Below, one piece after another: positions 30,408 to 48,908 of a stretch of 64,000 nt of DNA. Every line of letters starts with the position of its first letter. The stretch's first letter is position 1. Origin of the DNA: Microgenomates group bacterium Gr01-1014_5 (GTDB lineage: Bacteria; Patescibacteriota; Microgenomatia; UBA8517; UBA10165). Location of the stretch: NCBI GenBank assembly GCA_007376395.1, contig VMGE01000003.1:26057-90056 (forward strand). Direction: 5' to 3'. Position numbers and translations under genes: made by a program. The notes under the pieces are model-generated. The model saw only the letters and a list, made by a program, of their open reading frames with translations. It ran no database searches and was not told the origin of the DNA.

Positions 30408-31100
30408 TTAATTGTGCTGTTTTAAACCTTCAATTAATCCCATGATCTTATAATGTAGATAAGTAGTTTTTTGTGGACGAAGAGTTAATGTTCCGAAATG
30501 TTGTTCAAAATTCTCATAAAATTTATATAATTTCGAGATTTTAAAGTTTGTTTTTTGGAAATTTGATTGAGGTATTCCAGTTAATTCAGCCCAATAATCC
30601 TTAACTTTTTGTTCTCTTGAACGATGTATCTCATTAATTCCAATATAACAACTAATAAGAGTTTCGTCTATTTTGAAACACTTTTTGAGCCAATATAGGG
30701 CAAAGCTAATTAGTTTTGGGTCTGAATTACTAATTTCTAATCTACCCATTTTTTTGCTTCCTTCTCCCCAATAAAGCGCAAGTCCAGCAATCAACAACTC
30801 TCTTTCGTTTAAAGTTTTTAAACTGGATTTTCCTAAATTTTCAAATTTTTGTATAATGTCAAGCCTTTGATTTTTTAAAAATAATGAATGTATTAGATTT
30901 CCCCGTTCGCGACCTTTTATTTCTTTTTGTCTAAGTACTTCTAATTGTTCTATCGATAAAATAATGTCCCGAACCCAGATACTTGCAGTACCCTTTGAAA
31001 CAGCCAATTTAACAGCAATATCTTTAACACTTTTTCCCTGGGAACGAAGTTCTCGGGCTTTTAGTCTAAGCGCAGATTTAGCCACAACTAAGTTTCCCAA
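30408..31100 (-). CDS. Fusion of an HTH domain and a single-motif LAGLIDADG-like homing endonuclease (paralog A)
   Basis: N-terminal HTH ELRSQGKSVKDIAVKLAVSKGTASIWVR and an LAGLIDADG-like LIAGLALYWGEGSK. Paralogous to the ORFs at 41734..42423 and 48228..48908. Confidence 0.6.
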   Translation of the reverse strand: MGNLVVAKSALRLKARELRSQGKSVKDIAVKLAVSKGTASIWVRDIILSIEQLEVLRQKEIKGRERGNLIHSLFLKNQRLDIIQKFENLGKSSLKTLNERELLIAGLALYWGEGSKKMGRLEISNSDPKLISFALYWLKKCFKIDETLISCYIGINEIHRSREQKVKDYWAELTGIPQSNFQKTNFKISKLYKFYENFEQHFGTLTLRPQKTTYLHYKIMGLIEGLKQHN

Positions 31101-31136
31101 ATTTAACCCGAATTTGTCAAGATGTAACTTCGAAGC

Positions 31137-31565
31137 TCAATCTAAGTTTGCTACGACTAACTTGAATCCCTCTTTAGAATACCAACTGTCAAATGAGAAA
31201 ATATACTCTGCTCCAAGCTCAACTGCTGTTTCAGCAACAATTGCATCAAAAATGGTGTTTTTCTTAGAATTTGTACGACTAAACCTTTGACTAGCTAATT
31301 TTTGTATTTTTTCATCTATATACTCAATACTTAAAGTCCCTTGCAAGTAACGTGTATTAACAAGTTCGGCTTTGTCAGGTAAATTTAAAGCTCTTTTTAG
31401 AGTTGTGATTGTTTCTAAAATAGCGGTGTTTGGATAAACAACCTCATACCCCTGAGAAAGTAGCCATTTACTAATATTTTTAGCTTTAATATGGTTAGCA
31501 TCCTCTTTACACACTAAAGCGATGAGGGAGTCCGTATCACCGACTGCTATTTTACTTTTTGCCAT
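31137..31565 (-). CDS. PIN-domain toxin (VapC-like). Start at MAKSKIAV.
   Basis: Conserved acidic residues (IAVGDTDSLIAL...FDA...FSFD); overlaps the upstream RHH gene. Confidence 0.65.
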   Translation of the reverse strand: MAKSKIAVGDTDSLIALVCKEDANHIKAKNISKWLLSQGYEVVYPNTAILETITTLKRALNLPDKAELVNTRYLQGTLSIEYIDEKIQKLASQRFSRTNSKKNTIFDAIVAETAVELGAEYIFSFDSWYSKEGFKLVVANLD

Positions 31566-31827
31566 TACTCCTCTTTTCCCCACCCCAAGCATAATAGTCA
31601 TGATTTTCAGATATATCACTTGGAGTATTGGAGTTAGACGGCAATTTCTCTGCAAAGCTCGCAAGTTCAACTAAAGCTTTTACAGAACTAGATTTAGGGT
31701 AAATGACATCCAGACCGGTATTTAGAGCTTCCCGGATTAACTCGGATTCAATTTTTCGCTTGGCTTTTGCAGCTAGGTCAATCCTTTGCTTAGTTTCATC
31801 AGAAATATGTACGCTTATTCTTTGCAT
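31552..31827 (-). CDS. Ribbon-helix-helix (CopG/VapB-like) antitoxin
   Basis: ISVHISDETKQRIDLAAKAKRKIESELIREALN is a typical RHH fold. It overlaps the PIN gene. Confidence 0.65.
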   Translation of the reverse strand: MQRISVHISDETKQRIDLAAKAKRKIESELIREALNTGLDVIYPKSSSVKALVELASFAEKLPSNSNTPSDISENHDYYAWGGEKRSNGKK

Positions 31828-31990
31828 ATCTCTATATTATCATACGTATTACGTATGTCAAGCGATAAAAAGGCTACGCTTATTTCGAGCTTGCGAGAAA
31901 CAAGGTTCGCTTATACCAGATTGAAGGTAGATTGTTTATTAAACTCGCATTCGATTGGAAAATTAAGCAATTCAGGCTTATAATATTCTT

Positions 31991-32926
31991 ATGGACGAGT
32001 TAGTAAACTCCAACGAAGCCTCTCGTCAAGTTCTAGATGCCTATAAAAAGGCGGAAAATTTATTGGGTGGTTTTGAATCTGGTAGGTTTGAAACAGAGAT
32101 TCCTGGACAAGCCGAGGTAAGAAGTTTTGAAATTACCCAACGTTATTCTGGAAAGAAACAAACACCCCTTATTGTCAAACTTCCTGAGGCCGATTTCTAC
32201 CTAGACCCTAGAAACCCTTTTATTGTCACTATGCATGACAAAACTCCACAACCTGAGCTAAGTTTTTGGGACAAGTTGAAAGGCAAAACACACACCCCTC
32301 GAACAAAAGCTACTACCAAAGAAATAGGCATGCTTTCAGAACTTATTGCGAATGCAAAACCAACTCAAAAAGAACAAAATCGCAGAAAAATAACAAACGA
32401 TTCACGAGAGGTGTTTTCGTCTAATACAGAAAGAGAGGTAAAAGGTTTACTGGAAAAATTAAAACAAAAAGGAGAAAAGACTGTTTTGGTATTCATTATC
32501 GACAACTCAATCGAAAAGACACACTATATTAAAAGTGATTTTGTCGAAAAACATGCCCAAAAAAGCGGTTTCGGTTATGTTGTAGGTTATAAATATGATG
32601 GGGAAGAAGCAATACAATTCTTCAAAGCATTCAAACAACAGGCTCCAGTTGACCTTCCAATCGTTGTTTATTTAGATAACAACCTTGTTAATGGTGGAGA
32701 TCACAATCCTAAATACAGAATTGGTATGGATGTAATAAAGCGAATTGATGAATTGTGTAAAGAAAATGGTTGGACTATGCCTTACTTAATTGGTGGTTCT
32801 TCAGACAAGGAGCCAAACGAAGCCTTAAAAGAAGCGTACCCCGACCTTTATGTTGGTAGAATTTATGATTTTAGTACTCTCAAAGACCCTCTAGAAAATT
32901 TAGAAGAAAGATTAGCTTCCAAATAA
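31991..32926 (+). CDS. Hypothetical protein with a possible C-terminal receiver-like (REC) domain
   Basis: VLVFIIDNS ... VVYLDNNLVNGGD ... PYLIGGSSDKE resembles the acidic pocket, phospho-acceptor Asp and S/T-K positions of a REC domain. The N-terminal 150 aa are unknown. Confidence 0.4.
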   Translation: MDELVNSNEASRQVLDAYKKAENLLGGFESGRFETEIPGQAEVRSFEITQRYSGKKQTPLIVKLPEADFYLDPRNPFIVTMHDKTPQPELSFWDKLKGKTHTPRTKATTKEIGMLSELIANAKPTQKEQNRRKITNDSREVFSSNTEREVKGLLEKLKQKGEKTVLVFIIDNSIEKTHYIKSDFVEKHAQKSGFGYVVGYKYDGEEAIQFFKAFKQQAPVDLPIVVYLDNNLVNGGDHNPKYRIGMDVIKRIDELCKENGWTMPYLIGGSSDKEPNEALKEAYPDLYVGRIYDFSTLKDPLENLEERLASK

Positions 32927-32954
32927 TTTTTTCCTAGCCTCGCCAGACCTTAAA

Positions 32955-33224
32955 TTAATCAGATTTGATTTTGAGAAGAAAGTATTTGAGTTGTTTTTTT
33001 AAAACCCGTTTCCCCATTGAAGTTTTTAGGTATTTTTCTCTTGCTTCAGTATCTTTCTTCAATAGATAAGCTTCATAGTAAATAAGTTTTAGGGGTTTGT
33101 AGGGAGCAGTCGAGAAATTATTTCCTGCATTATGTTCTTTTACCCTTTTCCTAAGATCAGAAGTTGAACCTTTATAAAACCATCCCGTCTTTTTCAAAGA
33201 TTGTAAAACATAAACATAGTACAC
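32955..33224 (-). CDS. Small GIY-YIG nuclease-domain protein
   Basis: YYVYVL...WFYKGSTSDLRKRVKEHN (GIY-YIG plus a conserved Arg and Glu); 89 aa. Confidence 0.75.
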   Translation of the reverse strand: MYYVYVLQSLKKTGWFYKGSTSDLRKRVKEHNAGNNFSTAPYKPLKLIYYEAYLLKKDTEAREKYLKTSMGKRVLKKQLKYFLLKIKSD

Positions 33225-33239
33225 TCAATTGATTTTATA

Positions 33240-33400
33240 CCCTTAGGGGTATTATGTCAGGGTGGTGTGCACAAAGTGCACATAATATCCCGACACCACC
33301 CCCACGAGGTCGGAAGAAAAAAGGCCCTGTTGGGGTTATTATGTGAACTTCGTTCACACCAACCCCATGAGGGTGGAATGAAAAAAGCCACCCTACCGGT
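33240..33400. repeat. Two tandem ~70-bp hairpin-forming units (GGG-TATTATGT...GTGCAC-aaa-GTGCAC-ATAATA...CCC, followed by CCCCA(C/T)GAGG(T/G)(C/T)GGAA(G/T)GAAAAAAG)
   Basis: Seen directly in sequence. The predicted ORF 33257..33439 merely translates this repeat (AFFIPPSWGWCE / AFFLPTSWGWCRD). Confidence 0.55.
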
Positions 33401-33425
33401 GGCTTTTGAATTTGATACCCTCAGT
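33386..33425. terminator. Bidirectional rho-independent terminator AAAAAAGCCACC-ctacc-GGTGGCTTTTGAATTT
   Basis: Perfect 8-bp GC-rich stem with an A-run before and a T-run after; downstream of the minus-strand gene 33538..34068. Confidence 0.55.
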
Positions 33426-33537
33426 TGCGAGGGATACAAGAAATAAGAACCTACTTCCTAGCCTCGCCTGACCCTGTATTTATACCAGATTTACGCTGAT
33501 TTTACCAGGGATTAGTTGACTGTGTTGGAACTTATTA

Positions 33538-34068
33538 CTACTGTCCATGACTTGCCATATAACTTACGATATCAGTAATGGCTTTGTTGTTTTTATTTAC
33601 CAAGTCATCCAGTGTACTTAACTCTACATTTGTAATTGCTTTCGAGAAGTCGAAATAATGCCCTCTTGAATATCCGCGCCTAACATTAATTTTTTGAGTT
33701 GATGGAGGAATACCCTCCTCGATATTGCCATACTGGATAAACCACTGTGAATGTGCTACGTCATTTCTTCCTTCTATGCACTCTTTGACCAAATTATAAG
33801 TGGGCAAGAATCTTTTTTGTGATTCTACCCCAATTCTTTGTACAATAAGATCACGTACTAAATCTAATTTTTCTAAAAATTCCATATTTTTTGCAATGGA
33901 ATTAGTAACATTTTGCTTTACTATTGATTCACCTTCTGGATTAATAAGATCTCCCATAAAAAATTCAAGGATCGATTCTAAATGTCGCGATAGTACAACC
34001 ACTTCACCAATTTTAGAAAGAAACTCTTTTGTTTTTGGATCAGAAGTATCTAAAAGAGTGGCATTCAT
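33538..34068 (-). CDS. Hypothetical protein, possibly HEPN-like (Rx4H: GRNDVAH)
   Basis: Alpha-helical 176-aa protein with a single R-x4-H motif. The call is weak. Confidence 0.35.
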   Translation of the reverse strand: MNATLLDTSDPKTKEFLSKIGEVVVLSRHLESILEFFMGDLINPEGESIVKQNVTNSIAKNMEFLEKLDLVRDLIVQRIGVESQKRFLPTYNLVKECIEGRNDVAHSQWFIQYGNIEEGIPPSTQKINVRRGYSRGHYFDFSKAITNVELSTLDDLVNKNNKAITDIVSYMASHGQ

Positions 34069-34145
34069 AAGTATATTTTATCATATTTGAAGCTAGTGGC
34101 TTTGCACACAGAAGCATGTATTTAACGCACCCCATAGAAATATTC

Positions 34146-34751
34146 TTAATAGAAGCCATTATATTTTTTTGTTAAATTAGAAACAGTTTCTAGTCGATCT
34201 TTTCTATAATAATATTTGTCAATTTTGTATTCGCTTGGGGAGATCTTTACAAGCTCAAAGATTAAATCATCTATACTTGCAAAATAGTCAGGAGTAGAAT
34301 TGTCGCGTGCTGTTCTTAACTCTTTAACTAGTACAACATAAACATCGGCTTTTTTTGTTATGTCGATAACATAGTACCAATTGAGTTTGAAGTCTAGACC
34401 TGCAGTTCCATACATTCGCAGAGATGTCGGTTGAGTTAAGTCTTTTCCTGTTAAAAAGTTGTATCCCTGTTGTTCTTTGTCGCTTGAAGGAGCCGTAAAC
34501 ATATTAAGAACTTCCTTACCATCTCTTTTAGCTTGGTATATTTCGAACGTCCTAATGGTTGATAATATAGAGATTGCCTCAGCTTCGCTCACAAAAGTTT
34601 TTGAGTATTCAAACTGAAGTTCCAAGTCTAGCTTCGATATTTCTTCAGACTTTGTCGCTTGCTCAGGTTGAACCTGTTGGTTATTAGTGGGCAAATAGTT
34701 TGCTACCAAAAAACCGATGATAATACCGGTCACAAGAATCAGAAGCCTCAT
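34146..34751 (-). CDS. Membrane-anchored hypothetical protein
   Basis: N-terminal TM helix then a soluble domain. Confidence 0.45.
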   Translation of the reverse strand: MRLLILVTGIIIGFLVANYLPTNNQQVQPEQATKSEEISKLDLELQFEYSKTFVSEAEAISILSTIRTFEIYQAKRDGKEVLNMFTAPSSDKEQQGYNFLTGKDLTQPTSLRMYGTAGLDFKLNWYYVIDITKKADVYVVLVKELRTARDNSTPDYFASIDDLIFELVKISPSEYKIDKYYYRKDRLETVSNLTKKYNGFY

Positions 34752-34884
34752 GATATATATTCATTCTACTATATACATAATTTGGTAAAATAAGAGTAGG
34801 TCTATTAGGCTTGGAAGATATAATAACAACTAGAAATATTCATTTTAGAGACAATTATAACGAGGGTACACCTATAACTAAGTT

Positions 34885-35091
34885 ATGAATAAAGCACAAA
34901 TCAAGCAACTCAATAAAAAAATTAACCAGTTACTTGAGCGCAGAAAAGCAACGGAAGATCGTGTCATACCGATCCTTACGGCAATAAAGTATGGTATCAA
35001 CTATACTACTAAATATAGTGAGCTTAAGGAAGAAGATTTAGATCGAATGATTAATGGTGAAAGTAGCAATAGAGATATAATTGCGCAATGA
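34885..35091 (+). CDS. Small hypothetical protein
   Basis: ORF track; 4-nt overlap with the next ORF. Confidence 0.35.
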   Translation: MNKAQIKQLNKKINQLLERRKATEDRVIPILTAIKYGINYTTKYSELKEEDLDRMINGESSNRDIIAQ

Positions 35092-35456
35092 AAAAATCAT
35101 GTTTGTTTATCAGAACTAACGGTTTACCATGCAAGGCTAAAACATTAATAAATGGAAACTTATGCTTCAGGCATGATCCAGACAAGGTAAGCATGGCACT
35201 TAATGCATCACGCAAAGGTGGAGAAAATAGAGCACTACAAGGGGTTTATGGTGAACCTATTACACTGAAAAACCCAGATGATGTTAAAAGATTTTTAGGA
35301 CAAGTTATAAATGCTGTTTGGTCAGAGGGTGTGCCGGTACAAGTAGGTAGCTCGATGGGCTTTTTAACAAGATGCTGGTTAGATGCTTATGAGGCTTCGG
35401 ATGTAATTAAAAGGTTAGATGAAATAGAAGAAAAATTAGACCTCATAAATCCCTAG
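35088..35456 (+). CDS. Hypothetical protein with an N-terminal C-x9-C-x9-C-x2-H cluster
   Basis: CLFIRTNGLPCKAKTLINGNLCFRH is a possible zinc ribbon. Confidence 0.4.
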   Translation: MKKSCLFIRTNGLPCKAKTLINGNLCFRHDPDKVSMALNASRKGGENRALQGVYGEPITLKNPDDVKRFLGQVINAVWSEGVPVQVGSSMGFLTRCWLDAYEASDVIKRLDEIEEKLDLINP

Positions 35457-35713: not shown

Positions 35714-35769
35714 GGTCTGATTATATCACGGAAGTATCCTACATAATAATCCCGTGCAGAAACTATTTA

Positions 35770-36156: not shown

Positions 36157-36204
36157 ACGAGAAACTGAACCATTTAGGATCTTAAAATTGGCTTTGTCTA
36201 GAAT

Positions 36205-36867: not shown

Positions 36868-36890
36868 TTATACTCTTAATTATCTTCGGT

Positions 36891-37807: not shown

Positions 37808-37834
37808 TTAGGTTTATATTTAGGTATTTTTAGG

Positions 37835-39558: not shown

Positions 39559-39625
39559 TACTCAAACGGCTGATTGCTTTTTTTGATGGCCGTCTTGGAC
39601 AACCTGAGCAATCAGTTTGAGTACA
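39559..39625. promoter_or_regulatory. Imperfect inverted repeat GTACTCAAACGGCTGATTGCT ... AGCAATCAGTTTGAGTAC (about 28-nt spacer) upstream of the serine recombinase. It is a candidate attP-like site or operator.
   Basis: Seen directly in sequence; 18/21 matched arms. Coordinates are within ±2 nt. Confidence 0.4.
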
Positions 39626-41386
39626 ACCAGGGCGGCCTTTAAAGATTTTATGGAAGAAAAACAAATCTATCTTCGCTATTTGGGGTATGTTCGCAAGAGT
39701 TCAGAAGATAACAAGGAGCGACAAGCCGCTTCCCTCCCCGAGCAGTTATATGTACTCGAAGGAATTAAAGCAAAACACAACTTAACTCTCGTTGATACTC
39801 TCCAAGAATCAAAATCGGCACACAAGCCTGGGCGGGAAATCTTTAACAATATGCTTGCCCGAATAGAGAGCAGTGAAGCAAACGCAATTTTAACCTGGCA
39901 CCCCAACAGGCTTTGCCGTAACGCACTTGATGCTGGACAACTTCTTTATCTCATGGACGAAGATAAATTAGTCGAAATTCGCACACCTTCGCGGACATAT
40001 CGAAATACCCCAGAAGACAAATTTATGTTGACCCTTGAATTTGGTATGTCCAAAAAAGACTCGGACGATAAAAGCATTGTTGTTGAAAGAGGTTTGGAAA
40101 AGAAAGCAAGGGACGGCTGGAGGCCAGGTGTTGCTCCACAAGGATACTTGAATGATAAAACAACAGAGAGTGGCTTTAGAAAGATACTGACTGACCCTGA
40201 AAGGTTGTCCTTTATTAAGAAAATCTTTGAGCTTTTTTCCAATGGAACTTCTGTAGTTGAAATCCACAGAATTGCCAAAGACGAATGGAAATTTCTCTCA
40301 AGACAAAAGAAACGAAGCGGTGGTATACCGCTTTCTTTGAGCATGATTTATAAGATGTTGACTAACCCTTTTTATTGCGGAAAGTTTGAGTATCCAGAAG
40401 GAAGCGGCAAATGGTACGAAGGCGCACACGAACCAGCAGTAGACCAAAAGATATTTGACGAAATACAGGTCAAATTAGGCCGCAGAAGCCAATACAAGCT
40501 CCAACATCACAACTTTGCCTATACAGGTAGTATGGTTCGCTGTGGTTCGTGTAATTCAAGCATAGTAGCCGAGCAAAAATGGCAGTGTATTTGTACCAAG
40601 TGCAAGCTAAAATTCTCGCTTACCAAGAAAAATAAAGAAAGGTGTACTGGTTGTGGGACTCTTATCAAGAATATGTCCGACCCAACTATTCTCCACTATG
40701 TCTATTATCGTTGCGGACGGAAAAAGAATCCGAATTGTAGGGAGCGTGCAGAAAGAGTTGATAGGCTTGAGAAGCAAATTGATGAAAAACTCTCTCAAAT
40801 TGAAATCTCACCCTTGTTTATGGACTGGGCAATACGCCAAATCCACAAGATGAATGATAGTAATAAAGATTTTACAGAAGAAGCCATAGAGAGCATTAAA
40901 CGAGCCCATGACGGATGCAGGGCAAAGCTTACTAACTTACTGCAACTTAAAATTTCACCTGCAAATAGCGATGGTGGCCTTATCAGCGACGAGAAATACA
41001 AGGAAGAAAAGGATAAATTAGAAATAGAGTTAAAAGGAGTAGAAAAACAACTTGTTAATACTGACGACAGAATGTTGCAGGCAAATGAAGAGACTGTAAA
41101 AGCGTTTACTTTTGTTGCCAGAGCAAAAGAAAGGTTTGCAACTGATGATTTGAAAATAAAACGAGATATTTTTTTGGGACTTGGGTCGCACCTAACTTTG
41201 CAAAATAAAACAGTCGGAATTATAGCACCAAAATACATTTATACGATCGAAAAAATGAAAGAAGCTGAGCCGATTATCGCAGAACGGGTCGCACCTGGAA
41301 ATCAGCCTGAATATACGCACCAAATGGAGACATATTTTGCCTCCAATCCTACTCTGTTGCGGGGCCGGGAGTCGCGCCCGGCCTAG
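39617..41386 (+). CDS. Large serine recombinase (phage-integrase type)
   Basis: N-terminal resolvase catalytic domain YLGYVRKSSEDNKERQAASLPEQ with the catalytic Ser. A recombinase domain, a Cys-rich zinc ribbon (CGSCNS...CTKCK...CTGCG) and a coiled-coil follow. Confidence 0.88.
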   Translation: MSTTRAAFKDFMEEKQIYLRYLGYVRKSSEDNKERQAASLPEQLYVLEGIKAKHNLTLVDTLQESKSAHKPGREIFNNMLARIESSEANAILTWHPNRLCRNALDAGQLLYLMDEDKLVEIRTPSRTYRNTPEDKFMLTLEFGMSKKDSDDKSIVVERGLEKKARDGWRPGVAPQGYLNDKTTESGFRKILTDPERLSFIKKIFELFSNGTSVVEIHRIAKDEWKFLSRQKKRSGGIPLSLSMIYKMLTNPFYCGKFEYPEGSGKWYEGAHEPAVDQKIFDEIQVKLGRRSQYKLQHHNFAYTGSMVRCGSCNSSIVAEQKWQCICTKCKLKFSLTKKNKERCTGCGTLIKNMSDPTILHYVYYRCGRKKNPNCRERAERVDRLEKQIDEKLSQIEISPLFMDWAIRQIHKMNDSNKDFTEEAIESIKRAHDGCRAKLTNLLQLKISPANSDGGLISDEKYKEEKDKLEIELKGVEKQLVNTDDRMLQANEETVKAFTFVARAKERFATDDLKIKRDIFLGLGSHLTLQNKTVGIIAPKYIYTIEKMKEAEPIIAERVAPGNQPEYTHQMETYFASNPTLLRGRESRPA

Positions 41387-41733
41387 GAGATTATGCATCT
41401 GTAATCTCTAATTACTCAGAGTGTCGGACTATATCTTCACCCCGATTAAATCGGGGGCTCGGCGTGTAGTCTCTACGGTGTCCCTCCGAAACTTTAGTGA
41501 AGGAGGGTTCCCTCGGTATTACCCTCTATAAGAGTAGGGTTTCACCGATATAGCCAAGTTATCAAGAAACATTACTGTTAAATGTGCCCAATTTGAGCCT
41601 CCTGTGCAACTCTACACTACCCCGCATGTCTCTTACCAACTGAATTATAACAGATGCAGGCTCGAATTAAAAGCCTCTTGACTACCAATAGAATAGCTGT
41701 TATGGTGATAGTTAAACCACATAACTTTATACA
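41387..41733 (+). other. Highly structured ~345-nt non-coding region with several perfect hairpins. Candidate ncRNA or attachment-site region.
   Basis: Hairpins CCCCGATT-taaa-ATCGGGG, CCCTCC-gaaactttagtga-GGAGGG and CTCT-ata-AGAG; no ORF; GC is higher than in surrounding intergenic DNA. Confidence 0.3.
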
Positions 41734-42423
41734 TTGATCAGGAAACCCCTAGAAAAACAAAAAGCTCAAGAGCTACGAAAGCAAGGCAAGAGTATCGGAG
41801 AAATAGCACAAGAACTTGGAATTTCAACCTCAACAGTTAGCTTGTGGGTAAGAAATATTACTTTAACAACTGAGCAGAAAAAACGGCTTGAAAATAAGGT
41901 GTTTACTACCCTACAGAAAGGTAGGATTATCGCCCAGGAGGTTCAAAAACAATTAAGAGACAATCTCAAAAGAGAAATCTCTGCCGAAGCCGTACTACAA
42001 CTCGGAAAACTCTCAAAAAGAGACCTTTTTATTGCCGGAATTATCCTATATTGGACAGAGGGTTTTAAAAAAGATAATCGGTTAGGATTTGCAAATTCCG
42101 ACCCACAAATGGTCAAGTTATTCTTAAAATGGCTTTATACCTTGGGAGTACCAAAAAATAGTATCCGTTTAAGAGTTGGGATAAATATTAGCCACAAAAA
42201 GAGAGTTAAGGTTATAGAAAAATATTGGTCTAAACAAACCAACATCCCCCTTTCTCAATTTCAGAAGCCCTTTTTTCAAAAATTTATATGGAAAAAAGAA
42301 TTTCCTGATCCAAACTTATACCATGGAGTTATAAGAGTGCGTGCCATAAACCAAGGCAGATTGTTCATAAAAATACTTAAATGGATAGCATTGGTAAGAA
42401 CTTCAAATAATACTTTGCTATAA
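41734..42423 (+). CDS. HTH plus LAGLIDADG-like homing endonuclease fusion (paralog B; TTG start)
   Basis: ELRKQGKSIGEIAQELGISTSTVSLWVR HTH; FIAGIILYWTEGFKK. Confidence 0.6.
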   Translation: MIRKPLEKQKAQELRKQGKSIGEIAQELGISTSTVSLWVRNITLTTEQKKRLENKVFTTLQKGRIIAQEVQKQLRDNLKREISAEAVLQLGKLSKRDLFIAGIILYWTEGFKKDNRLGFANSDPQMVKLFLKWLYTLGVPKNSIRLRVGINISHKKRVKVIEKYWSKQTNIPLSQFQKPFFQKFIWKKEFPDPNLYHGVIRVRAINQGRLFIKILKWIALVRTSNNTLL

Positions 42424-42429
42424 TAAAGT

Positions 42430-43130: not shown

Positions 43131-43227
43131 CTATCTTCAAATACCCCTTGCAGTCATGTCTATTTTTTGATAATATAGGTTATCCTAAAGGATAACCAAT
43201 TCCTAAAAGGAATTTAGGCTACTAATT

Positions 43228-44094
43228 ATGGCTACAACTAAAACATTAACCGATTTAAAACTGGACTTTGTTCGTAATCTTGAAAATACAGGACGTGCCT
43301 CAGCTACCATTCTAGCTTACAGAAAAGACCTTGAGCAACTTATTGAGTATTTAGAAAAACAAGGGAAAAACACCATTGAGCCTATCAGACCTCTCGACAT
43401 CGAGGCTTTTCGTGATTCCTTAAGGAGCCAAAATTATACTGACAAATCAGTCTCCCGCAAGCTAAACGCGGTCAAAACTTTCTTTGGCTGGCTGGTAACC
43501 CAGAAAATTTTAGAAAATGACCCAGCAGCGCCCGTTGCCCACCCCCGCTACGAGAATCCACCCCCAAGAATTCTTACCCGCATGGAGTACAGGGCTTTGC
43601 GTGACGCCGCCCGCGGAGATTTGCGCATTAGCGCTATTATCGAGTCAATGCTGCAAACCGGAATCCGTATTGGCGAGGTTTCCAATCTAAGACTAGAGGA
43701 CGTCCAAGGAGATAAAATTTTAATCAAGGCGTATGAATCTCAACCAGAACGCGAGATTCCCTTAAACGAGCCGGCAAAACAAGCTTTACATCAATACTTA
43801 GCAATCCGCCCCAAGGCACAAACTACTCACGTCTTTGTGACTAAAACAGGCCGTCCGCTACTCGTCCGCAACATAAGGAGTGCTATTGACCGCTATTTTA
43901 AAGAAGCCGGCATAGAAGACGCCAAAGTAAACGACATGCGCAACACCTTTATCGCCCACCAACTAAAGTCGGGTGTCGATATTGTCACGGTCTCCAAAAT
44001 TGCCGGGCACAGAAGACTCTCAACCACAGAGCACTATCTTCAGTTTGTTGAAAGAAAAGAGTCCCGCCGCGGAGCAAAACTAGACGAGCTCTAA
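43228..44094 (+). CDS. Tyrosine recombinase (XerC/XerD-like)
   Basis: R...H-x-x-R...Y pattern: GIRIGEVSNLRL, ...HQLKSG..., and C-terminal IAGHRRLSTTEHYLQ. Confidence 0.85.
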   Translation: MATTKTLTDLKLDFVRNLENTGRASATILAYRKDLEQLIEYLEKQGKNTIEPIRPLDIEAFRDSLRSQNYTDKSVSRKLNAVKTFFGWLVTQKILENDPAAPVAHPRYENPPPRILTRMEYRALRDAARGDLRISAIIESMLQTGIRIGEVSNLRLEDVQGDKILIKAYESQPEREIPLNEPAKQALHQYLAIRPKAQTTHVFVTKTGRPLLVRNIRSAIDRYFKEAGIEDAKVNDMRNTFIAHQLKSGVDIVTVSKIAGHRRLSTTEHYLQFVERKESRRGAKLDEL

Positions 44095-45881
44095 ATAATT
44101 CCGCATAGATATAGCGCTCTTCTTTGGTTTTGGCTATATTGATCCATATTACCCCAAATAAATGATTTTTCAATTGACCGAACTTCTTCTTTAGAATAAG
44201 TCTGCCCTCCCATAGAATAACCATTAGAATACATGTACCGAATCCCATGATCTTCCGCCCTATTAGTGGGGTGATCGGTATGATTTCCCGAGCGAGTTCC
44301 CAACTCAATTGCTAATTTAACAGTTTGCCATGTAGCCTCCCAACTATCTCTATCCCAAGCCCACATCCCTCCCGTGTGGATTCGAAAACCTAACCTCTTT
44401 AATGTATCCACAACTGCAACATCTCGAACTTTTGAAGCAAGAACCTCCCTGATAGATTGCAAACCGTTATTAAACTCAGTCGCACTAACAACCCCTGCAG
44501 GAAAAAGACTGTAAGCCTCTGACGCTAAATCCTGAATTGTATGGTTCTTAAAGTACTCTTGAAGGTCTATTCCCTCCCAAAGATTCCATATGCTTTCCCA
44601 GAGAGCATTATTTTTTGTGTCGTATACCTCAAGACCTTTTTGATATCTTATTCGATCAAACAATCCATCTCCTATTTCCCTCTTCATGTATTGCACAAAA
44701 CTAGACTTGTCGTCTTTAACTCTTTCAAATAGCTGATTAATCGTCACCGGTGAAAGAGACTGGTCATACTTAATTCTGGTTATTCTCTCTTCTTGTAATT
44801 CCTCTCCTTGTAAACTTTGAGTTTTTCCACCTTCAACAAATACGCTTCCTTCTGGCATTTCAAAACTTCCACCAACGGGCAGTTCCCAAAAGGAATCAAC
44901 TGTATTAAGCTGGGTTGGTTTACCGTTGGCTTCCAAAGCTGACTTAAAAGGGATAATAACAGCATATCCAGCTCCTTCCCAGGAACCATACATATGAGAC
45001 ACAACCGGGTGGTTCATTGAAAAATGTAGTGTTGTGCGAGGAGATAAACCTCTTGTTGAATCAAAGGTAGAGCGAATTTCATATCGCCCAGTTTCAGGAT
45101 TCATTACTGGTTTAAACCTTGTCAAGTGCACACAAACCAACTCCTCTACTTTTAAGGCTTCCTGGGTGACTGGAAAATTTTTGGAGTGCTCGAGAAGTTT
45201 TTCATTTGCTTGGGCGTCTCTTTCTTGGTCATGTTTTTCTAGCTGAGCCAACTTTTCAGAAGATAAAGTTTTCGCAGCTTCATCACCTATTAACAAAAGC
45301 ACTGCTAAAACCTCGCCTTCTCTTTTGTTTTCCTTATTAGCCGCAACTCCGTTTGTATCAACAATATTTCCAGCTACTACCCTATCAATTAAATCTCTAA
45401 CTTGCGGGGTAAACTTCCAATTAACCACTGTTAATTTTCTTGCTTCTCTAATTTGAGAATCATTCCCGCCCAAATGGAAATATAAATCCAGTAAACCCTG
45501 AGGGCTTGATTCAACAAGAAAAGTCGCTTTTCCGTCGTTTAAAGCTTTTTGGTATTCAGGACCGCTCGATCCGCTTGTTTGTTCGCTTTTAATTATTCTG
45601 GCAGCTTGGGGTACTTTTTCTTGTCCTTCACGGGTTTTTAAGCTTCCTACGGGTACAACCAATCTATCTTTTACCAAATCCCCGCCACTGGTCGGTTCAC
45701 CGCGGCTAAAAAATATAGCTTCGACTTTTTGCCCCTGTTTCGTTGTAAATTCGTAAGCATAAATCGCTCTTCCCTCCTCGTCAACCCCTTCTCTTCTTTG
45801 GAAAGGATATTCTTTCGGAGGTTCTGACGGCTTAATTAATTCACTTTGTGAAGCAGTTAATGTTTCAGCTACTTCTGGCAT
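44091..45881 (-). CDS. Large hypothetical cytoplasmic protein (596 aa)
   Basis: ORF track; no TM helices; no motif I can recognise. Confidence 0.5.
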   Translation of the reverse strand: MPEVAETLTASQSELIKPSEPPKEYPFQRREGVDEEGRAIYAYEFTTKQGQKVEAIFFSRGEPTSGGDLVKDRLVVPVGSLKTREGQEKVPQAARIIKSEQTSGSSGPEYQKALNDGKATFLVESSPQGLLDLYFHLGGNDSQIREARKLTVVNWKFTPQVRDLIDRVVAGNIVDTNGVAANKENKREGEVLAVLLLIGDEAAKTLSSEKLAQLEKHDQERDAQANEKLLEHSKNFPVTQEALKVEELVCVHLTRFKPVMNPETGRYEIRSTFDSTRGLSPRTTLHFSMNHPVVSHMYGSWEGAGYAVIIPFKSALEANGKPTQLNTVDSFWELPVGGSFEMPEGSVFVEGGKTQSLQGEELQEERITRIKYDQSLSPVTINQLFERVKDDKSSFVQYMKREIGDGLFDRIRYQKGLEVYDTKNNALWESIWNLWEGIDLQEYFKNHTIQDLASEAYSLFPAGVVSATEFNNGLQSIREVLASKVRDVAVVDTLKRLGFRIHTGGMWAWDRDSWEATWQTVKLAIELGTRSGNHTDHPTNRAEDHGIRYMYSNGYSMGGQTYSKEEVRSIEKSFIWGNMDQYSQNQRRALYLCGII

Positions 45882-45933
45882 AAGACAGTAGACTAGTTTA
45901 CCATCAATTAAAAGCGGCGCAAAGCTCGACGAA

Positions 45934-47844
45934 TTATTCCGTTCTCTTTTGGCTTACTGCTCCGGGGATTTTTTCCCAATCGCGATTCTTCCTTACTTTT
46001 AAGTTCTTGTTCCAAATAGACTCAAATACAGATAAATCCACTTGTAAAGCTCGAGCTAAGCCCAAAAAACCAACAAGGTCTTTAGGAAAACAGTTATGGA
46101 CAACTGCATCTGCTAAGACGTATGTGTGATTTTTACTAACCTCAAAGTTATAAACTTTTCCTTCATAATCAACCTCAGTAATTTCTTTAATAGGTATAAA
46201 AAAGAAGTCTTTCTCGAAAAAAGAAGTCTTACGTAGAAGTTTAAGGTCTTTTTCTAGTTTGTCGTCGATAATCTGACTAAATTTCTGAATATCGGAATAA
46301 TTCCTAATCCTAATAAAGTAGGCTGTCTTATGATTTACTCCATCCCTACCTGTTCTCTCTTGTGCGATCCTGGTAGAAAAACCAATTTCCAAGCTTAGTA
46401 AAATCAATTTTAATTGATAAAATAAATCCTGAGAAATAGTCGCCATACTATAAACTCCGGTTGATTTGCTACCGTCACCTCTAAAATAACCTTTCATAAA
46501 CTCAGTTAAACCCTTTCTGTTTGATGATAAAATTTTTACACTTAGACGTTTTTTCGCACTCATTTTACCGCAATTTTCCTCAAGTAAGTTAGCTAGTTTC
46601 TGTGAACTACACCGTAGATTAAGTGCATTTCCTACCCCTCTTCTGTGTGTAACTAAGCTGAAATTCAGCTTCAATATTTTCTCAATATCCTCTACATAAG
46701 TAGATTCGTTTTTGTGGAACCCAAATGTTATTCTGTTTTTCACACCTATGTGTCCCTCTGCTACATAATATCCAAAGAGCCGCATAACACTATTATTAAA
46801 ATTTTTCGTACCATTTTTAACTTTAGGTAAAACTATAAAATCTCCTTTTTGTAATTCTCGAGCTGGTACCCACTCTAAATTAAGATTGCCGTTATAATTA
46901 GTAAGCTTTTGTCTTTTAATTCCATTATATTTTCTTCCGGTTTTTACAGCATATACAGGATGTTCACTTGTAAGGGTAAATCCCTGCAACCCCTGTCCTC
47001 TTATAAAAATAAGTTTCTCATTTACCTCTCTTTCGTGCCTTTCTAAAACTTTTTGACAACTTCCATCTATTGTTAGAACAGAATCGCCAAATTCTACTTC
47101 TCGAACGAATTTTATTCCTCCGTTTACATAGACTTTTGTTTCAGGATGTAAACATTTCCCGCCAAATCCCATATCCCCGTCCGGGCCGGGAACTTTCAAA
47201 TGCCCTCCAATTCTCGGGTCTGCCTGTACCATTTCGCGGACATCGTCATAATTTACTTTTAATTTATCTGCTAAACCATGTATTTCATTTGCCAAAATAA
47301 TTTTGGCGGACAATAGCGCGTTGGAAGCAAATTTTGCAAGTTCAACAGTCGTTGGATCACTTAAGAAATATTTCGCGTCCTGGGGGTAAATTGCCTCGTA
47401 TAAAGCCTTGATTCTTTCAGCGATACTTTTATCAAGAGCTCCTATCAAGGTTCTGTCTGGGTGTAAAAAGTCATTTTCTGGCTGTTTTTCAGTTAAAAAT
47501 TCGGGGTTGAAGGCAAAATTTACATTAGAATATTTTTCGCTGAAACTTTTAGTTGTTCCGGGGATAACTGTTGATTTGATAATTAATACTTTTTCCGTAT
47601 TAACCAAAAGTGGAGCAAAATTACTGACTGCCTCCTCTACTACAGAAATATCTGTTCCGGAATAATCAGAAAACATAGGTGTGGGGACACAGACAAATAG
47701 AAAATCTGAAGCCTCGACCAATTCTTCGACACTTAGCCCGCCTTCTTTATATGGGTCGTGCCACGCAACCTCGTGTGAGCTTTGAAAACCCTTACCTGTT
47801 GCTTGTCCTACAACTCCCCAACCAATAATACCAACCTTTGCCAT
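45934..47844 (-). CDS. Nucleotide-sugar (UDP-glucose/GDP-mannose) dehydrogenase-family protein interrupted by an intein. The C-terminal extein is unusually short (52 aa).
   Basis: N-terminal Rossmann GIIGWGVVG, and a catalytic-site GFGGK-[C...VVHN]-CFPKD split by the intein. Confidence 0.8.
   Translation of the reverse strand: MAKVGIIGWGVVGQATGKGFQSSHEVAWHDPYKEGGLSVEELVEASDFLFVCVPTPMFSDYSGTDISVVEEAVSNFAPLLVNTEKVLIIKSTVIPGTTKSFSEKYSNVNFAFNPEFLTEKQPENDFLHPDRTLIGALDKSIAERIKALYEAIYPQDAKYFLSDPTTVELAKFASNALLSAKIILANEIHGLADKLKVNYDDVREMVQADPRIGGHLKVPGPDGDMGFGGKCLHPETKVYVNGGIKFVREVEFGDSVLTIDGSCQKVLERHEREVNEKLIFIRGQGLQGFTLTSEHPVYAVKTGRKYNGIKRQKLTNYNGNLNLEWVPARELQKGDFIVLPKVKNGTKNFNNSVMRLFGYYVAEGHIGVKNRITFGFHKNESTYVEDIEKILKLNFSLVTHRRGVGNALNLRCSSQKLANLLEENCGKMSAKKRLSVKILSSNRKGLTEFMKGYFRGDGSKSTGVYSMATISQDLFYQLKLILLSLEIGFSTRIAQERTGRDGVNHKTAYFIRIRNYSDIQKFSQIIDDKLEKDLKLLRKTSFFEKDFFFIPIKEITEVDYEGKVYNFEVSKNHTYVLADAVVHNCFPKDLVGFLGLARALQVDLSVFESIWNKNLKVRKNRDWEKIPGAVSQKRTE
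46093..47154 (-). mobile_element. Intein (354 aa) with a LAGLIDADG homing-endonuclease domain, inserted at the catalytic Cys of the dehydrogenase
   Basis: Begins with Cys (CLHPE...) and ends ...VVHN followed by a +1 Cys. Contains LAGLIDADG-like LFGYYVAEGHIG. Confidence 0.75.
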
Positions 47845-48101
47845 TATTTTTGTGTCCTTAATGAGGTTATCTCCTCGTCTAATGTATGTATATATCCTTC
47901 CAAAACCTTAATCTGTGAGTATTTTATTTCAGAAGATGCGTTTTCGTGCCTGACGCCATGAAAATACTTGTAACGCTCTGTGAGTTCTGCCTCAGCTTCC
48001 ACTCTTTTCTTTTCAAGCTCCTTAATTCTTTTACCCGGCGCCATTTTACGCAAAGCTATAATTTCCTTAATTGTTGTTCTCTTGGGACGATAATTAGGCA
48101 T
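47844..48101 (-). CDS. Small hypothetical protein
   Basis: ORF track. Confidence 0.4.
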   Translation of the reverse strand: MPNYRPKRTTIKEIIALRKMAPGKRIKELEKKRVEAEAELTERYKYFHGVRHENASSEIKYSQIKVLEGYIHTLDEEITSLRTQK

Positions 48102-48125
48102 AGTTTACCCTGAGTGAAACCGAAA

Positions 48126-48203
48126 GGTGGGCCCAGTTGGACTCGAACCAACAAAACCTTCTAGGTATAAGCTAGACGCTCTGGCCAATTGAGCTATGGG
48201 CCC
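48126..48203 (-). tRNA. tRNA with apparent anticodon UAU (Ile, AUA-decoding type) and an atypical 7-nt variable region
   Basis: Hand fold GGGCCCA-TA-GCTC-AATTGGCCA-GAGC-G-TCTAG-CTTATAC-CTAGA-AGGTTTT-GTTGG-TTCGAGT-CCAAC-TGGGCCC-A-CC. A TAAAAT box sits about 13 nt upstream. Confidence 0.7.
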
Positions 48204-48227
48204 CAACCATGGCTATTTTATCATATT

Positions 48228-48908
48228 TCAAGTCCGAAGTCTCCTGACATATTCGTCAGATACAACCTCTATGCTCATTAAAATCTTCTCGATCAGATCC
48301 CTGCCGTTTACTATCAAATTACAAGTGCCGTGACCGATACCCTTATAAGTTAAGCCTCGTAGTGTTGTTTCTTTTATATAAGGTTTTATAAATTTGCCCT
48401 CAGGAATCCTTAGCTCCTTACTCCAAAATGCAATTTCCATCTTTTGATCCATATCTTTATATAGATGCAACCTAATAGTTATTTTATCTTTTGGAACTTT
48501 AAGAATTTTAATTAGCCAGTAAAGAAAAAATTTTACTACTTTAGGATTAGTGTTACTCAAACTCGTTGCAAATGGCGTAGTCTTTGCTCCCTCACCCCAA
48601 TAAAGAAATAGTCCTGCAATTAACAGTTCTCGCTTCGTTAAGGGCAGTAATAATTTCTTTTGGTGGTCATATACAGCTTTCCGTCTAGTAGTAGTTTTTA
48701 TTCTCCATGTCTCTCTAAATCTCTCAATACGTTTTTCGCTATTTGCCCTCAGTTTATTTATTTGCTCTCTACTTAGAGGATATCCGCGAAGCCACAAACT
48801 AAGACTGCTTTTACTTACTTGAAGTTGTTCTTTTATATATGAATAGCTAAAACCTTGCTTCCTTAATTCTAAGGCTTGAAGTCTCTTCTCAGTCAGTGGA
48901 GCAACCAT
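48228..48908 (-). CDS. HTH plus LAGLIDADG-like homing endonuclease fusion (paralog C)
   Basis: ELRKQGFSYSYIKEQLQVSKSSLSLWLR HTH; LIAGLFLYWGEGAK. Confidence 0.6.
   Translation of the reverse strand: MVAPLTEKRLQALELRKQGFSYSYIKEQLQVSKSSLSLWLRGYPLSREQINKLRANSEKRIERFRETWRIKTTTRRKAVYDHQKKLLLPLTKRELLIAGLFLYWGEGAKTTPFATSLSNTNPKVVKFFLYWLIKILKVPKDKITIRLHLYKDMDQKMEIAFWSKELRIPEGKFIKPYIKETTLRGLTYKGIGHGTCNLIVNGRDLIEKILMSIEVVSDEYVRRLRT

What the first reader, a model, noticed from the sequence alone, without database searches (positions are those of the whole stretch)
30408..48908. Three paralogous HTH plus LAGLIDADG-like genes dispersed over 18 kb
ORFs 30408..31100, 41734..42423 and 48228..48908 share one architecture. 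Each has an N-terminal sigma-70 region-4/resolvase-like HTH (ELRKQG.S...I...L.VS..S.S.W.R). Each also has a single LAGLIDADG-like block (L[IF]AG[LI].LYW[GT]EG.K). Single-motif LAGLIDADG enzymes (I-CreI type) act as homodimers. A pre-fused HTH domain is not the usual organisation. Three diverged copies in one neighbourhood, next to tRNAs and a serine recombinase, suggest an actively spreading free-standing homing-endonuclease family. Alternatively, the LAGLIDADG fold may have been domesticated as a regulator.
Basis: partly seen in the sequence, partly recalled or inferred. Interest (0 to 1): 0.75.

Follow-up and report, generated by a model that had tools for sequence, protein, structure and literature searches.

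The report
tRNA-linked HTH-LAGLIDADG homing endonuclease genes
The three genes are real paralogues of a large, unnamed family of likely DNA-cutting selfish genes that sit beside particular tRNA genes, and one type is almost always paired with a self-splicing intron in the initiator tRNA gene, which may be how such 'immobile' introns spread.

Summary

- c1 ends 37 nt before tRNA-Met(CAU).
- c3 ends 24 nt before tRNA-Ile(UAU).
- c2 lies 107 nt from, and divergent to, an initiator tRNA gene split by a 200-nt ORF-less group I intron.

In 80 homologue loci, 65 of 81 family ORFs abut a same-strand tRNA, against 13 of 328 control ORFs. Protein subfamily tracks tRNA identity.

In an ORF-blind metagenome sample of this initiator tRNA the counts were:
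- intron with ORF: 10
- intron without ORF: 17
- ORF without intron: 0
- neither: 33 (Fisher p=1e-4)

Empty and filled sites differ by a clean ~700-bp insertion between two divergent tRNA genes.

Best reading: free-standing homing endonuclease genes living in tRNA spacers, with the c2 type in a collaborative-homing partnership with the tRNA-fMet intron. Cleavage and target are untested. A branch that looks fixed in Streptomyces argues for some domestication. I found no published description.

The parts
30408..31100 (-). c1: HTH + single LAGLIDADG-like gene. 230 aa from TTG; NCBI aa starting at 31085. Motif LIAGLALYWGEGSK lies at 30753..30794, with Glu113.
30294..30370 (-). Elongator-type tRNA(CAU), 37 nt downstream of the c1 stop on the same strand.
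   Evidence: ARAGORN and Rfam. It groups with the 'DOWN' tRNAs of c1-like loci.
30381..30389 (-). Extended -10-like element TGTTATAAT, 10 nt upstream of the tRNA and inside the c1-tRNA spacer.
   Evidence: Sequence read. The same element sits at the same distance in filled and empty sites of other loci. It is a consensus match only.
41734..42423 (+). c2: HTH + single LAGLIDADG-like gene (229 aa, TTG). Motif FIAGIILYWTEGFK lies at 42028..42069, with Glu109.
   Evidence: (P0001).
41678..41706 (+). Promoter-like site (TTGACT-17-TATGGT, preceded by TG) in the divergent spacer, upstream of c2.
   Evidence: Consensus scan only.
41644..41652 (-). Extended -10-like element TGTTATAAT, 17 nt upstream of the initiator tRNA.
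   Evidence: compare the empty and filled spacers.
41596..41626 (-). Initiator tRNA(CAU) 5' exon, nt 1-33, ending in U33.
   Evidence: Initiator-type sequence ((C/A/T)GCGGGG...CCCCGCAA) in the alignment.
41396..41595 (-). ORF-less group I intron (200 nt) between tRNA nt 33 and 34. It ends in G.
   Evidence: Rfam RF00028, 68.2 bits, full-length match at 41405..41605. In-silico splicing gives a 71-nt tRNA(CAU) that ARAGORN accepts.
41357..41395 (-). Initiator tRNA 3' exon, starting with the anticodon CAU.
48228..48908 (-). c3: HTH + single LAGLIDADG-like gene (226 aa, ATG). Motif LIAGLFLYWGEGAK lies at 48582..48623, with Glu106.
   Evidence: (P0003).
48126..48203 (-). tRNA-Ile(UAU), 24 nt downstream of the c3 stop on the same strand.
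   Evidence: All 19 c3-like relatives in the genome set have tRNA-Ile(UAU) in this position.
48215..48223 (-). Extended -10-like element TGATAAAAT, 11 nt upstream of tRNA-Ile.
   Evidence: the same element appears at empty tRNA-Ile sites.

Best explanation
c1, c2 and c3 are free-standing homing endonuclease genes of a large, so far unnamed HTH-LAGLIDADG family. Their genomic niche is the promoter-proximal 5' flank of particular tRNA genes.

Shown:
- Each protein has a three-helix HTH, a long linker helix and one LAGLIDADG-fold core with an invariant Glu/Asp-Gly-x-Lys/Arg.
- Each subfamily sits at its own tRNA locus: c1 type at the elongator tRNA(CAU), c2 type at the initiator tRNA, c3 type at tRNA-Ile(UAU). 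Other branches sit at tRNA-Gln and tRNA-Gly.
- At the tRNA-Met/tRNA-fMet locus the ORF is a discrete ~700-bp insertion that is present in some genomes and cleanly absent in others.

Inferred:
- The protein dimerises through the LAGLIDADG helices, as I-CreI-type enzymes do, with the two HTH domains extending the DNA footprint. It then makes a staggered double-strand break in alleles that lack it.
- Repair copies the gene in, using the highly conserved flanking tRNA genes as homology arms.
- For the c2 type, the target is at or near the intron insertion site in the anticodon loop of the initiator tRNA gene. The resident intron then splits the site and protects the host, and intron and ORF spread together by co-conversion (collaborative or trans homing).
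- c1 and c3 move by intronless homing. Their exact targets are unknown.
For: Fold and active site:
- The profile aligns LYWgEGxK with I-DmoI LYVAEGDK. PDB entry titles name E117A and Q42A/K120M mutants of I-DmoI, so E117 and K120 were mutated in structural studies of cleavage.
- E/D is kept in 81 of 81 relatives and K/R at +3 in 81 of 81.
- Tandem-fused relatives of 500-576 aa carry two EG.K cores. This mirrors the dimer-to-monomer route known for this enzyme class.

tRNA linkage:
- 65 of 81 family ORFs against 13 of 328 other ORFs have a same-strand tRNA start within -45..+60 nt of the stop (p=1e-46).
- Subfamily tracks tRNA identity.

Mobility:
- The empty site has divergent tRNA-Met and tRNA-fMet 50-146 nt apart with back-to-back -10 elements. 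The filled site has the ORF inserted between them. Empties hold no remnants.
- tRNA-Ile(UAU) genes met incidentally in c1-type loci have the c3-like ORF in 2 loci (L009, L043) and lack it in 6.
- Degenerate copies exist: L119 is frameshifted and L025 has an in-frame stop.

Intron link:
- The 2x2 table is 10/17/0/33, Fisher p=1.1e-4.
- 22 ORF-selected loci, counting the window's c2, have a divergent upstream group I intron.
- No c2-like ORF was seen beside an uninterrupted initiator tRNA.
- The introns are 176-230 nt, too short to encode a protein.

Precedent:
- Collaborative and trans homing in phages (PMC3984707, PMC2790892).
- The free-standing endonuclease SegB is associated with, and cuts, tRNA genes in phages (PMC13096335).
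Against: - No cleavage, target site or transfer event has been shown.
- No Pfam LAGLIDADG model matches at E<=1, and Foldseek gives nothing significant.
- Five c1-like loci (L003, L006, L016, L035, L039) combine an intact ORF with an uninterrupted initiator tRNA. The intron therefore cannot be a universal immunity device.
- Filled and empty tRNA-Ile alleles can have identical anticodon arms, so no resistance polymorphism is visible there.
- The Streptomyces branch is 74-89% identical across many species at one locus next to glmU-prs-rplY-pth. That looks like vertical inheritance under purifying selection rather than a selfish cycle.
- About 95% of copies are intact.
- There are no homologues in phage or plasmid collections.
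- The 2x2 sample is not phylogenetically controlled. Empty sites could also reflect deletion rather than absence of invasion.
Confidence: 0.58

Rival explanations
1. Domesticated DNA-binding factor. The LAGLIDADG core serves as a dimerisation and DNA-binding scaffold and the HTH reads a site at the tRNA promoter. The protein regulates or marks its neighbouring tRNA gene, analogous to WhiA, and no longer moves.
For: - The Streptomyces orthologues are 74-89% identical across many species at a fixed locus 15 nt upstream of tRNA-Gln(UUG).
- Most copies are intact.
- The ORF end lies against, or over, the tRNA's -10 element or the tRNA itself. That is where a cis-acting regulator might bind.
- There are no homologues on phages or plasmids.
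Against: - The acidic residue and the +3 Lys/Arg are invariant. From my own knowledge, WhiA has lost the catalytic acidic residues.
- In the CPR (Patescibacteria) loci the gene is dispensable: 0 of 33 intron-less and 17 of 27 intron-containing initiator-tRNA loci lack it, and most tRNA-Ile(UAU) genes lack it.
- A regulator of tRNA transcription gives no reason for the intron association.
Confidence: 0.2
2. Host-beneficial nuclease. It is an active endonuclease kept because breaks near tRNA genes drive recombination that repairs, homogenises or amplifies tRNA genes, as shown for phage SegB under tRNA-targeting defences.
For: - SegB is a free-standing endonuclease that is statistically linked to tRNA genes, cuts inside them and drives their amplification (PMC13096335).
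- The catalytic motif is invariant.
- The Streptomyces branch looks long retained.
- PIN-domain genes, possibly tRNA-cleaving toxins, lie next to c1 and c3.
Against: - No tandem amplification of tRNA genes is seen in the window or in the loci examined.
- The PIN neighbours are not recurrent.
- The sporadic distribution and the intron link are explained more simply by selfish homing.
Confidence: 0.12
3. Intron maturase. The protein binds the tRNA-fMet group I intron RNA and helps it splice, as some mitochondrial LAGLIDADG proteins do.
For: In an ORF-blind sample the ORF occurs only beside intron-containing initiator tRNA genes. The c2-like clades are nearly always beside the intron.
Against: - 17 of 27 intron-containing loci have no adjacent ORF.
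- The c1, c3, tRNA-Gln and tRNA-Gly branches sit beside intron-less tRNAs.
- Patescibacterial tRNA introns self-splice in vitro (PMC13011429).
- A maturase role needs neither an invariant catalytic Glu nor a DNA-type HTH.
Confidence: 0.06

Closest known systems
Single-motif and archaeal LAGLIDADG homing endonucleases (I-CreI, I-CeuI, I-DmoI second domain, I-Tsp061I, I-Vdi141I)
   Different: No Pfam LAGLIDADG model recognises it. It has an N-terminal resolvase/IS630-like HTH plus a ~30-residue linker helix. It is free-standing in bacterial chromosomes rather than encoded in an intron or intein. Its site is the 5' flank of a tRNA gene.
Collaborative or trans homing in phages (F-CphI with the psbA intron; T4 mobE with the I-TevIII intron)
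   Same: A free-standing endonuclease gene lies beside a gene that carries an ORF-less (or defunct-ORF) group I intron. The two are expected to move together by co-conversion (PMC3984707, PMC2790892, PMC6083498). c2 and at least 21 other loci have this layout.
   Different: Those cases are in phages, use other nuclease folds (Endo VII-like, HNH) and involve protein-coding genes. Here the host is a cellular genome (CPR, i.e. Patescibacteria), the nuclease fold is LAGLIDADG and the intron host is the initiator tRNA. The target site has not been determined here.
I-Ssp6803I and the cyanobacterial tRNA-fMet intron
   Same: The host gene and the insertion position (nt 33/34 of tRNA-fMet) are the same (PMC13011429). 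[quoted passage not shown]
   Different: I-Ssp6803I is a PD-(D/E)XK enzyme encoded inside the intron. Here the intron is ORF-less and the candidate nuclease is a LAGLIDADG protein encoded ~100 nt outside the tRNA gene on the other strand.
SegB (GIY-YIG) in T-even phage tRNA clusters
   Same: It is a free-standing endonuclease gene statistically associated with tRNA genes and embedded among them, and it cuts within tRNA genes (PMC13096335).
   Different: The fold differs, the host is a phage, and no isotype preference was reported. Here each subfamily keeps to one tRNA species and one position, immediately 5' of it.
WhiA (DUF199)
   Different: WhiA has two LAGLIDADG domains followed by a C-terminal HTH and lacks the catalytic acidic residues (my own knowledge). 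This family has one domain, an N-terminal HTH and an invariant Glu/Asp.

Membership tests
LAGLIDADG homing endonuclease superfamily | alpha-beta-beta-alpha-beta-beta-alpha core fold | tested here: met
LAGLIDADG homing endonuclease superfamily | Motif helix ending in a conserved acidic residue followed by Gly (metal ligand) | tested here: met
   The motif is [LF]IAG[LI]xLYW[GA]EGxK. E occurs in 80 of 81 relatives, D in 1 of 81, and G in 81 of 81. It is present in c1 (E113), c2 (E109) and c3 (E106).
LAGLIDADG homing endonuclease superfamily | Significant match to a curated LAGLIDADG sequence profile (PF00961, PF03161, PF14528 and the like) | tested here: not met
   No Pfam LAGLIDADG family matches at E<=1 for any of the three. 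Profile searches against PDB sequences reach only E=0.01-0.03 to I-DmoI. PADLOC 'HEase' gives E=0.006 for c2 only.
LAGLIDADG homing endonuclease superfamily | Two cores form the active enzyme (homodimer or tandem fusion) | tested here: inconclusive
   No multimer model could be run. Natural tandem fusions with two intact EG.K cores exist: P0270, P0283 and P0303.
LAGLIDADG homing endonuclease superfamily | Site-specific double-strand cleavage of a long DNA target | not testable with these tools
   This needs purified protein and substrates.
Free-standing homing endonuclease gene (mobile element) | Presence/absence polymorphism at one conserved genomic site with clean boundaries | tested here: met
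   Empty and filled tRNA-Met/tRNA-fMet spacers are shown. Empties hold no remnants. tRNA-Ile(UAU) sites are also filled or empty.
Collaborative / trans homing unit | [quoted passage not shown] | tested here: met
   Window: a 200-nt intron lies 107 nt plus one 31-nt exon from c2. 2x2 table: 10/17/0/33, p=1.1e-4. A further 21 ORF-selected loci show the layout.
Collaborative / trans homing unit | The endonuclease cuts the intron-less allele at or near the intron insertion site | not testable with these tools
   This is inferred only. Against a universal rule, five c1-like ORFs sit beside uninterrupted initiator tRNA genes.
WhiA-type domesticated LAGLIDADG regulator | Two degenerate LAGLIDADG domains without catalytic acidic residues, plus a C-terminal HTH | tested here: not met
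   This family has a single core, an N-terminal HTH and an invariant acidic residue.
Intron-encoded endonuclease / maturase | The ORF lies inside the intron | tested here: not met
   The ORFs lie outside the tRNA gene and mostly on the opposite strand. The introns are 176-230 nt.

The most novel reading that the evidence does not exclude
A widespread, undescribed class of tRNA-gene-specific LAGLIDADG endonucleases (more than 1,000 clusters at 50% identity) colonises the spacers of tRNA genes in cellular genomes. The flanking tRNA genes would act as universal homology arms.

One lineage would be the missing mobility engine for the ORF-less group I introns of patescibacterial initiator tRNA genes. 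That would be the first case of collaborative homing outside phages.

Another lineage appears fixed, and presumably co-opted, upstream of tRNA-Gln in Streptomyces.

A homodimer with a central LAGLIDADG core and two distal HTH arms could read the nested dyad symmetry that every tRNA gene has around its anticodon. That would explain the isotype specificity.
Probability: 0.4. Interest if true: 0.8.

Novelty: new variant of a known kind. Interest (0 to 1): 0.7.

Why it matters
If the proteins are active, three things follow.

- **Intron mobility in Patescibacteria.** A recent survey concluded that tRNA introns there have limited mobility because they lack endonuclease genes (PMC13011429). The endonuclease may simply be encoded next door, and that conclusion would need revision.
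- **Collaborative homing in cells.** This proposed route to composite mobile introns has so far rested on a few phage cases. It would extend to cellular genomes, with many natural intermediates to study: empty site, intron only, and intron plus ORF.
- **A new endonuclease scaffold.** It would add an HTH-fused single-core LAGLIDADG protein with natural specificities for different tRNA genes. This is of interest for meganuclease engineering.

The apparently fixed Streptomyces branch offers a culturable, genetically tractable system. There one can ask what a retained LAGLIDADG nuclease does next to a tRNA gene.

Tried and rejected
- **Family libraries.** Pfam, NCBIfam, PHROGs and PADLOC scans found only generic HTH matches and no named family for the C-terminal domain.
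- **Phage and plasmid collections.** tBLASTn of the Streptomyces protein against both collections, and of c2 against phages, found no homologues. The family is therefore not obviously phage- or plasmid-borne.
- **Foldseek.** The PDB search gave no significant hit; the top hit was YfiB at E 0.018. The afdb50 library was unavailable.
- **PIN-domain neighbours.** I considered a link to the PIN-domain genes upstream of c1 and c3, as possible tRNA-cleaving toxins or protein-only RNase P. I rejected them as part of the unit because homologues are absent from all other loci.
- **Serine recombinase.** I asked whether the recombinase abutting the tRNA-fMet 3' end marks an island with a repeated attachment site. 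The tRNA 3' end is not repeated anywhere in the window.
- **Degenerate ORF remnants.** I looked for remnants at empty sites, upstream of tRNA-Ile and upstream of tRNA-fMet. None were found.
- **Resistance polymorphisms.** I looked for differences between filled and empty tRNA-Ile alleles. None were evident, and the anticodon arms can be identical.
- **Literature.** Searches for the Streptomyces gene (SCO312x guesses) and for a tRNA-linked LAGLIDADG family found nothing relevant.
- **Pattern false positive.** One match to the tRNA-fMet pattern (L134) is a tRNA(CAC). I removed it from the counts.


Full report
**1. Observation**

The three ORFs are present at the stated coordinates. c1 is 30408..31100 on the - strand, c2 is 41734..42423 on the + strand, and c3 is 48228..48908 on the - strand. 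tblastn of c3 on the c1 locus gives E=9e-23, and there are no further copies in the window. The proteins are identical to three proteins of 'Microgenomates group bacterium Gr01-1014_5' deposited as hypothetical or uncharacterized proteins. The window is therefore from a CPR (Candidate Phyla Radiation, i.e. Patescibacteria) bacterium.

**2. Domains**

The N-terminal 45 residues match HTH_23 and related resolvase/IS630-type HTH models. c2 is above Pfam's cut-off, and c1 and c3 are just below it.

No Pfam LAGLIDADG model matches at E<=1. NCBIfam, PHROGs and PADLOC have no model for the C-terminal part either.

Family profiles searched against PDB sequences find the second LAGLIDADG domain of I-DmoI at E=0.01-0.03. 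The alignment puts LYWgEGxK on LYVAEGDK.

Across 81 family members from CPR, Actinobacteria and Chloroflexi the motif is [LF]IAG[LI]xLYW[GA]EGxK. Glu occurs in 80 and Asp in 1, Gly is invariant, and Lys/Arg at +3 is invariant. These align with I-DmoI E117 and K120, residues that were mutated in deposited I-DmoI structures (entry titles).

Tandem-fused relatives of 500-576 aa carry two complete HTH-core units, each with the EG.K motif. This is the classic dimer-to-monomer path of this enzyme class, and it indirectly supports dimerisation of the single-core proteins.

**3. The link to tRNA genes**

ARAGORN and Rfam find two tRNA genes in the window:
- tRNA(CAU) at 30294..30370 (-), 37 nt after the c1 stop.
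- tRNA-Ile(UAU) at 48126..48203 (-), 24 nt after the c3 stop.

Rfam also finds a full-length group I intron at 41405..41605 (-). Reading the sequence and splicing it in silico shows that it interrupts a 71-nt tRNA(CAU) between nt 33 and 34. The intron is 41396..41595. The 5' exon ends in U and the intron ends in G. By alignment this tRNA is the initiator type. Its 5' end lies 107 nt from the c2 start, on the opposite strand.

So all three tRNA genes in this 64-kb window have one family member beside them.

**4. The linkage is conserved and specific**

A scan of GTDB species genomes gave 80 homologue loci. Most are CPR, and the rest include a Streptomyces, another actinobacterium and an Anaerolineae genome.

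- Of the family ORFs, 65 of 81 have a same-strand tRNA starting within -45..+60 nt of their stop. The figure for other ORFs of at least 150 aa in the same loci is 13 of 328 (Fisher p=1e-46).
- In about 35 loci the stop codon lies inside the tRNA gene. Most often it is the TAG formed by tRNA nt 8-10.
- Clustering the proteins shows that subfamily tracks tRNA identity. c1-like proteins precede an elongator-type tRNA(CAU), often followed by tRNA-Asp. c3-like proteins precede tRNA-Ile(UAU) in all 19 cases. Actinobacterial members precede tRNA-Gln(UUG), and single cases precede tRNA-Gly.
- Many c1-like loci also have the initiator tRNA about 60-115 nt upstream, in either orientation.

**5. The intron partnership**

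Loci that lacked a downstream tRNA turned out to have a group I intron on the opposite strand about 100-300 nt upstream of the ORF, as c2 does. So do many c1-like and other c2-like loci. In total 22 ORF-selected loci, counting the window's c2, have this layout. No c2-like ORF was seen next to an uninterrupted initiator tRNA.

To remove the selection bias I scanned metagenome contigs for the 5' exon (nt 2-33) of this initiator tRNA type, blind to ORF and intron. Among loci with at least 850 nt of upstream flank, after removing one false positive, the counts are as follows.

| Initiator tRNA | ORF present | ORF absent |
|---|---|---|
| With intron | 10 | 17 |
| Without intron | 0 | 33 |

Fisher p=1.1e-4.

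The introns are 176-230 nt, too short to encode a protein. The adjacent ORFs belong to both the c1-like and the c2-like lineages. One of them, L119, is frameshifted.

**6. Empty and filled sites**

In empty loci the elongator tRNA-Met and the initiator tRNA are divergent. Their 5' ends are 50-146 nt apart, with back-to-back extended -10 elements between them.

In filled loci a ~700-bp ORF lies between them. It abuts or overlaps the tRNA-Met 5' end and ends 78-124 nt from the initiator tRNA, whose -10 element is retained. Sensitive searches find no ORF remnants in empties.

tRNA-Ile(UAU) genes met incidentally in c1-type loci have the c3-like ORF in 2 loci and lack it in 6. In the empties an unrelated gene and the same kind of -10 element lie directly upstream.

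In the window the canonical locus appears split. c1 keeps the tRNA-Met side and c2 keeps the initiator-tRNA side, about 10 kb apart.

**7. Interpretation**

The pattern has five parts:
- a nuclease-type fold with an invariant active-site motif;
- a fixed, highly conserved insertion niche;
- clean presence/absence polymorphism;
- several diverged lineages occupying the same site;
- occasional decay of individual copies.

Added to this are three observed states (empty, intron only, intron plus ORF) and the absence of 'ORF only'. This is what the homing cycle predicts. It matches the 'collaborative' or 'trans' homing layout described for phages, in which a free-standing endonuclease gene lies next to an ORF-less intron and targets its insertion site (PMC3984707, PMC2790892, PMC6083498).

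The same tRNA and the same position (33/34) host an intron-encoded PD-(D/E)XK endonuclease in cyanobacteria (PMC13011429; Bonocora and Shub 2001, cited in PMC3984707).

tRNA genes make good landing places for two reasons. They offer conserved targets, and they offer conserved homology arms on both sides. The phage endonuclease SegB shows that free-standing endonuclease genes do associate with, and cut, tRNA genes (PMC13096335).

What is shown is the anatomy, the distribution and the associations. What is inferred is dimerisation, cleavage, the target at the anticodon loop for c2, protection by the intron, and co-conversion.

**8. Evidence against, and rivals**

- Five c1-like ORFs coexist with uninterrupted initiator tRNA genes, so the intron is not a universal shield.
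- Filled and empty tRNA-Ile alleles can share identical anticodon arms.
- The family is absent from the phage and plasmid collections.
- Most telling, Streptomyces orthologues (~290 aa, with two HTH units) are 74-89% identical across many species. They always sit 15 nt upstream of tRNA-Gln(UUG), next to glmU-prs-rplY-pth. That looks like vertical inheritance under selection.

A domesticated role therefore remains a real possibility for part of the family. Candidates are regulation of the neighbouring tRNA or SegB-like stimulation of recombination at tRNA loci.

A maturase role is unlikely. Most family members sit beside intron-less tRNAs, 17 of 27 intron-containing loci lack the ORF, and related introns self-splice in vitro (PMC13011429).

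The 2x2 sample is not phylogenetically controlled.

**9. Novelty**

The family is large: 1,054 clusters at 50% identity score E<=1e-30, and 4,357 score E<=1e-10. Databases label it only 'hypothetical' or 'HTH domain-containing'.

I found no paper describing it or its tRNA linkage. The recent survey of patescibacterial tRNA introns looked for endonuclease genes only inside introns. It concluded that mobility is limited.

The components are known: the LAGLIDADG fold, free-standing endonuclease genes, collaborative homing, and tRNA association of SegB. The combination is new. It joins an HTH-fused single core, an isotype-specific position 5' of tRNA genes in cellular chromosomes, and partnership with a tRNA intron. 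I rate it a new variant of a known kind.

Noticed in passing
window 45934..47844 (-): A UDP-glucose/GDP-mannose dehydrogenase gene is interrupted by an intein that carries a canonical LAGLIDADG_3 endonuclease domain (Pfam E=1.5e-8). This is a second, unrelated LAGLIDADG element 300 nt from tRNA-Ile and c3.
   Followed up: no
window 39617..41386 (+): A large serine recombinase (589 aa; Resolvase plus Recombinase domains) has a 3' end that overlaps the 3' end of the intron-containing initiator tRNA by 30 nt on the other strand. It may be the edge of an integrated element. The tRNA 3' end is not repeated elsewhere in the window.
   Followed up: partly
window 31137..31670 (-) and 49027..49434 (-): PIN-domain genes lie directly upstream of c1 (36 nt) and c3 (118 nt). 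The second has a small upstream partner ORF at 49431..49709. They have no homologues in any of the 160 other loci, so this is probably coincidence or lineage-specific.
   Followed up: yes
L001-L080, e.g. L006 3681, L013 3675, L060 3648: In about 35 of 80 loci the family ORF reads into the downstream tRNA gene. It stops at TAG (tRNA nt 8-10), TAG (nt 19-21) or TAA (nt 36-38). RNase P cleavage of a co-transcript would then remove the stop codon, giving a non-stop mRNA.
   Followed up: partly
L057, L082 (Streptomyces); P0121-P0240: An actinobacterial branch of ~290 aa, with two HTH units and one LAGLIDADG-like core, is 74-89% identical across many Streptomyces species. It lies 15 nt upstream of tRNA-Gln(UUG), followed by glmU-prs-rplY-pth, and is annotated only as hypothetical.
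   Followed up: partly
P0270, P0283, P0303: GC-rich relatives of 500-576 aa are tandem fusions of two complete HTH-LAGLIDADG units, both keeping the EG.K motif. They look like single-chain versions of the presumed dimer.
   Followed up: partly
L077 2630..2877 (+): A group I intron lies between tRNA-Val(UAC) and a family ORF that is followed by tRNA-Gly(GCC). The interrupted host gene was not identified. It suggests intron partnerships beyond the initiator tRNA.
   Followed up: no
window 48126..48203 (-): The genome uses a tRNA-Ile with a UAU anticodon for AUA codons, which is an uncommon solution in bacteria (my own knowledge). The same tRNA is common in the related CPR loci.
   Followed up: no
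L060, L078, L079, L071: c3-like ORFs also sit between two tRNA genes: a divergent tRNA-Val(UAC) ~100 nt upstream and tRNA-Ile(UAU) downstream. This mirrors the tRNA-fMet/ORF/tRNA-Met layout. In L071 no tRNA directly follows the ORF.
   Followed up: partly
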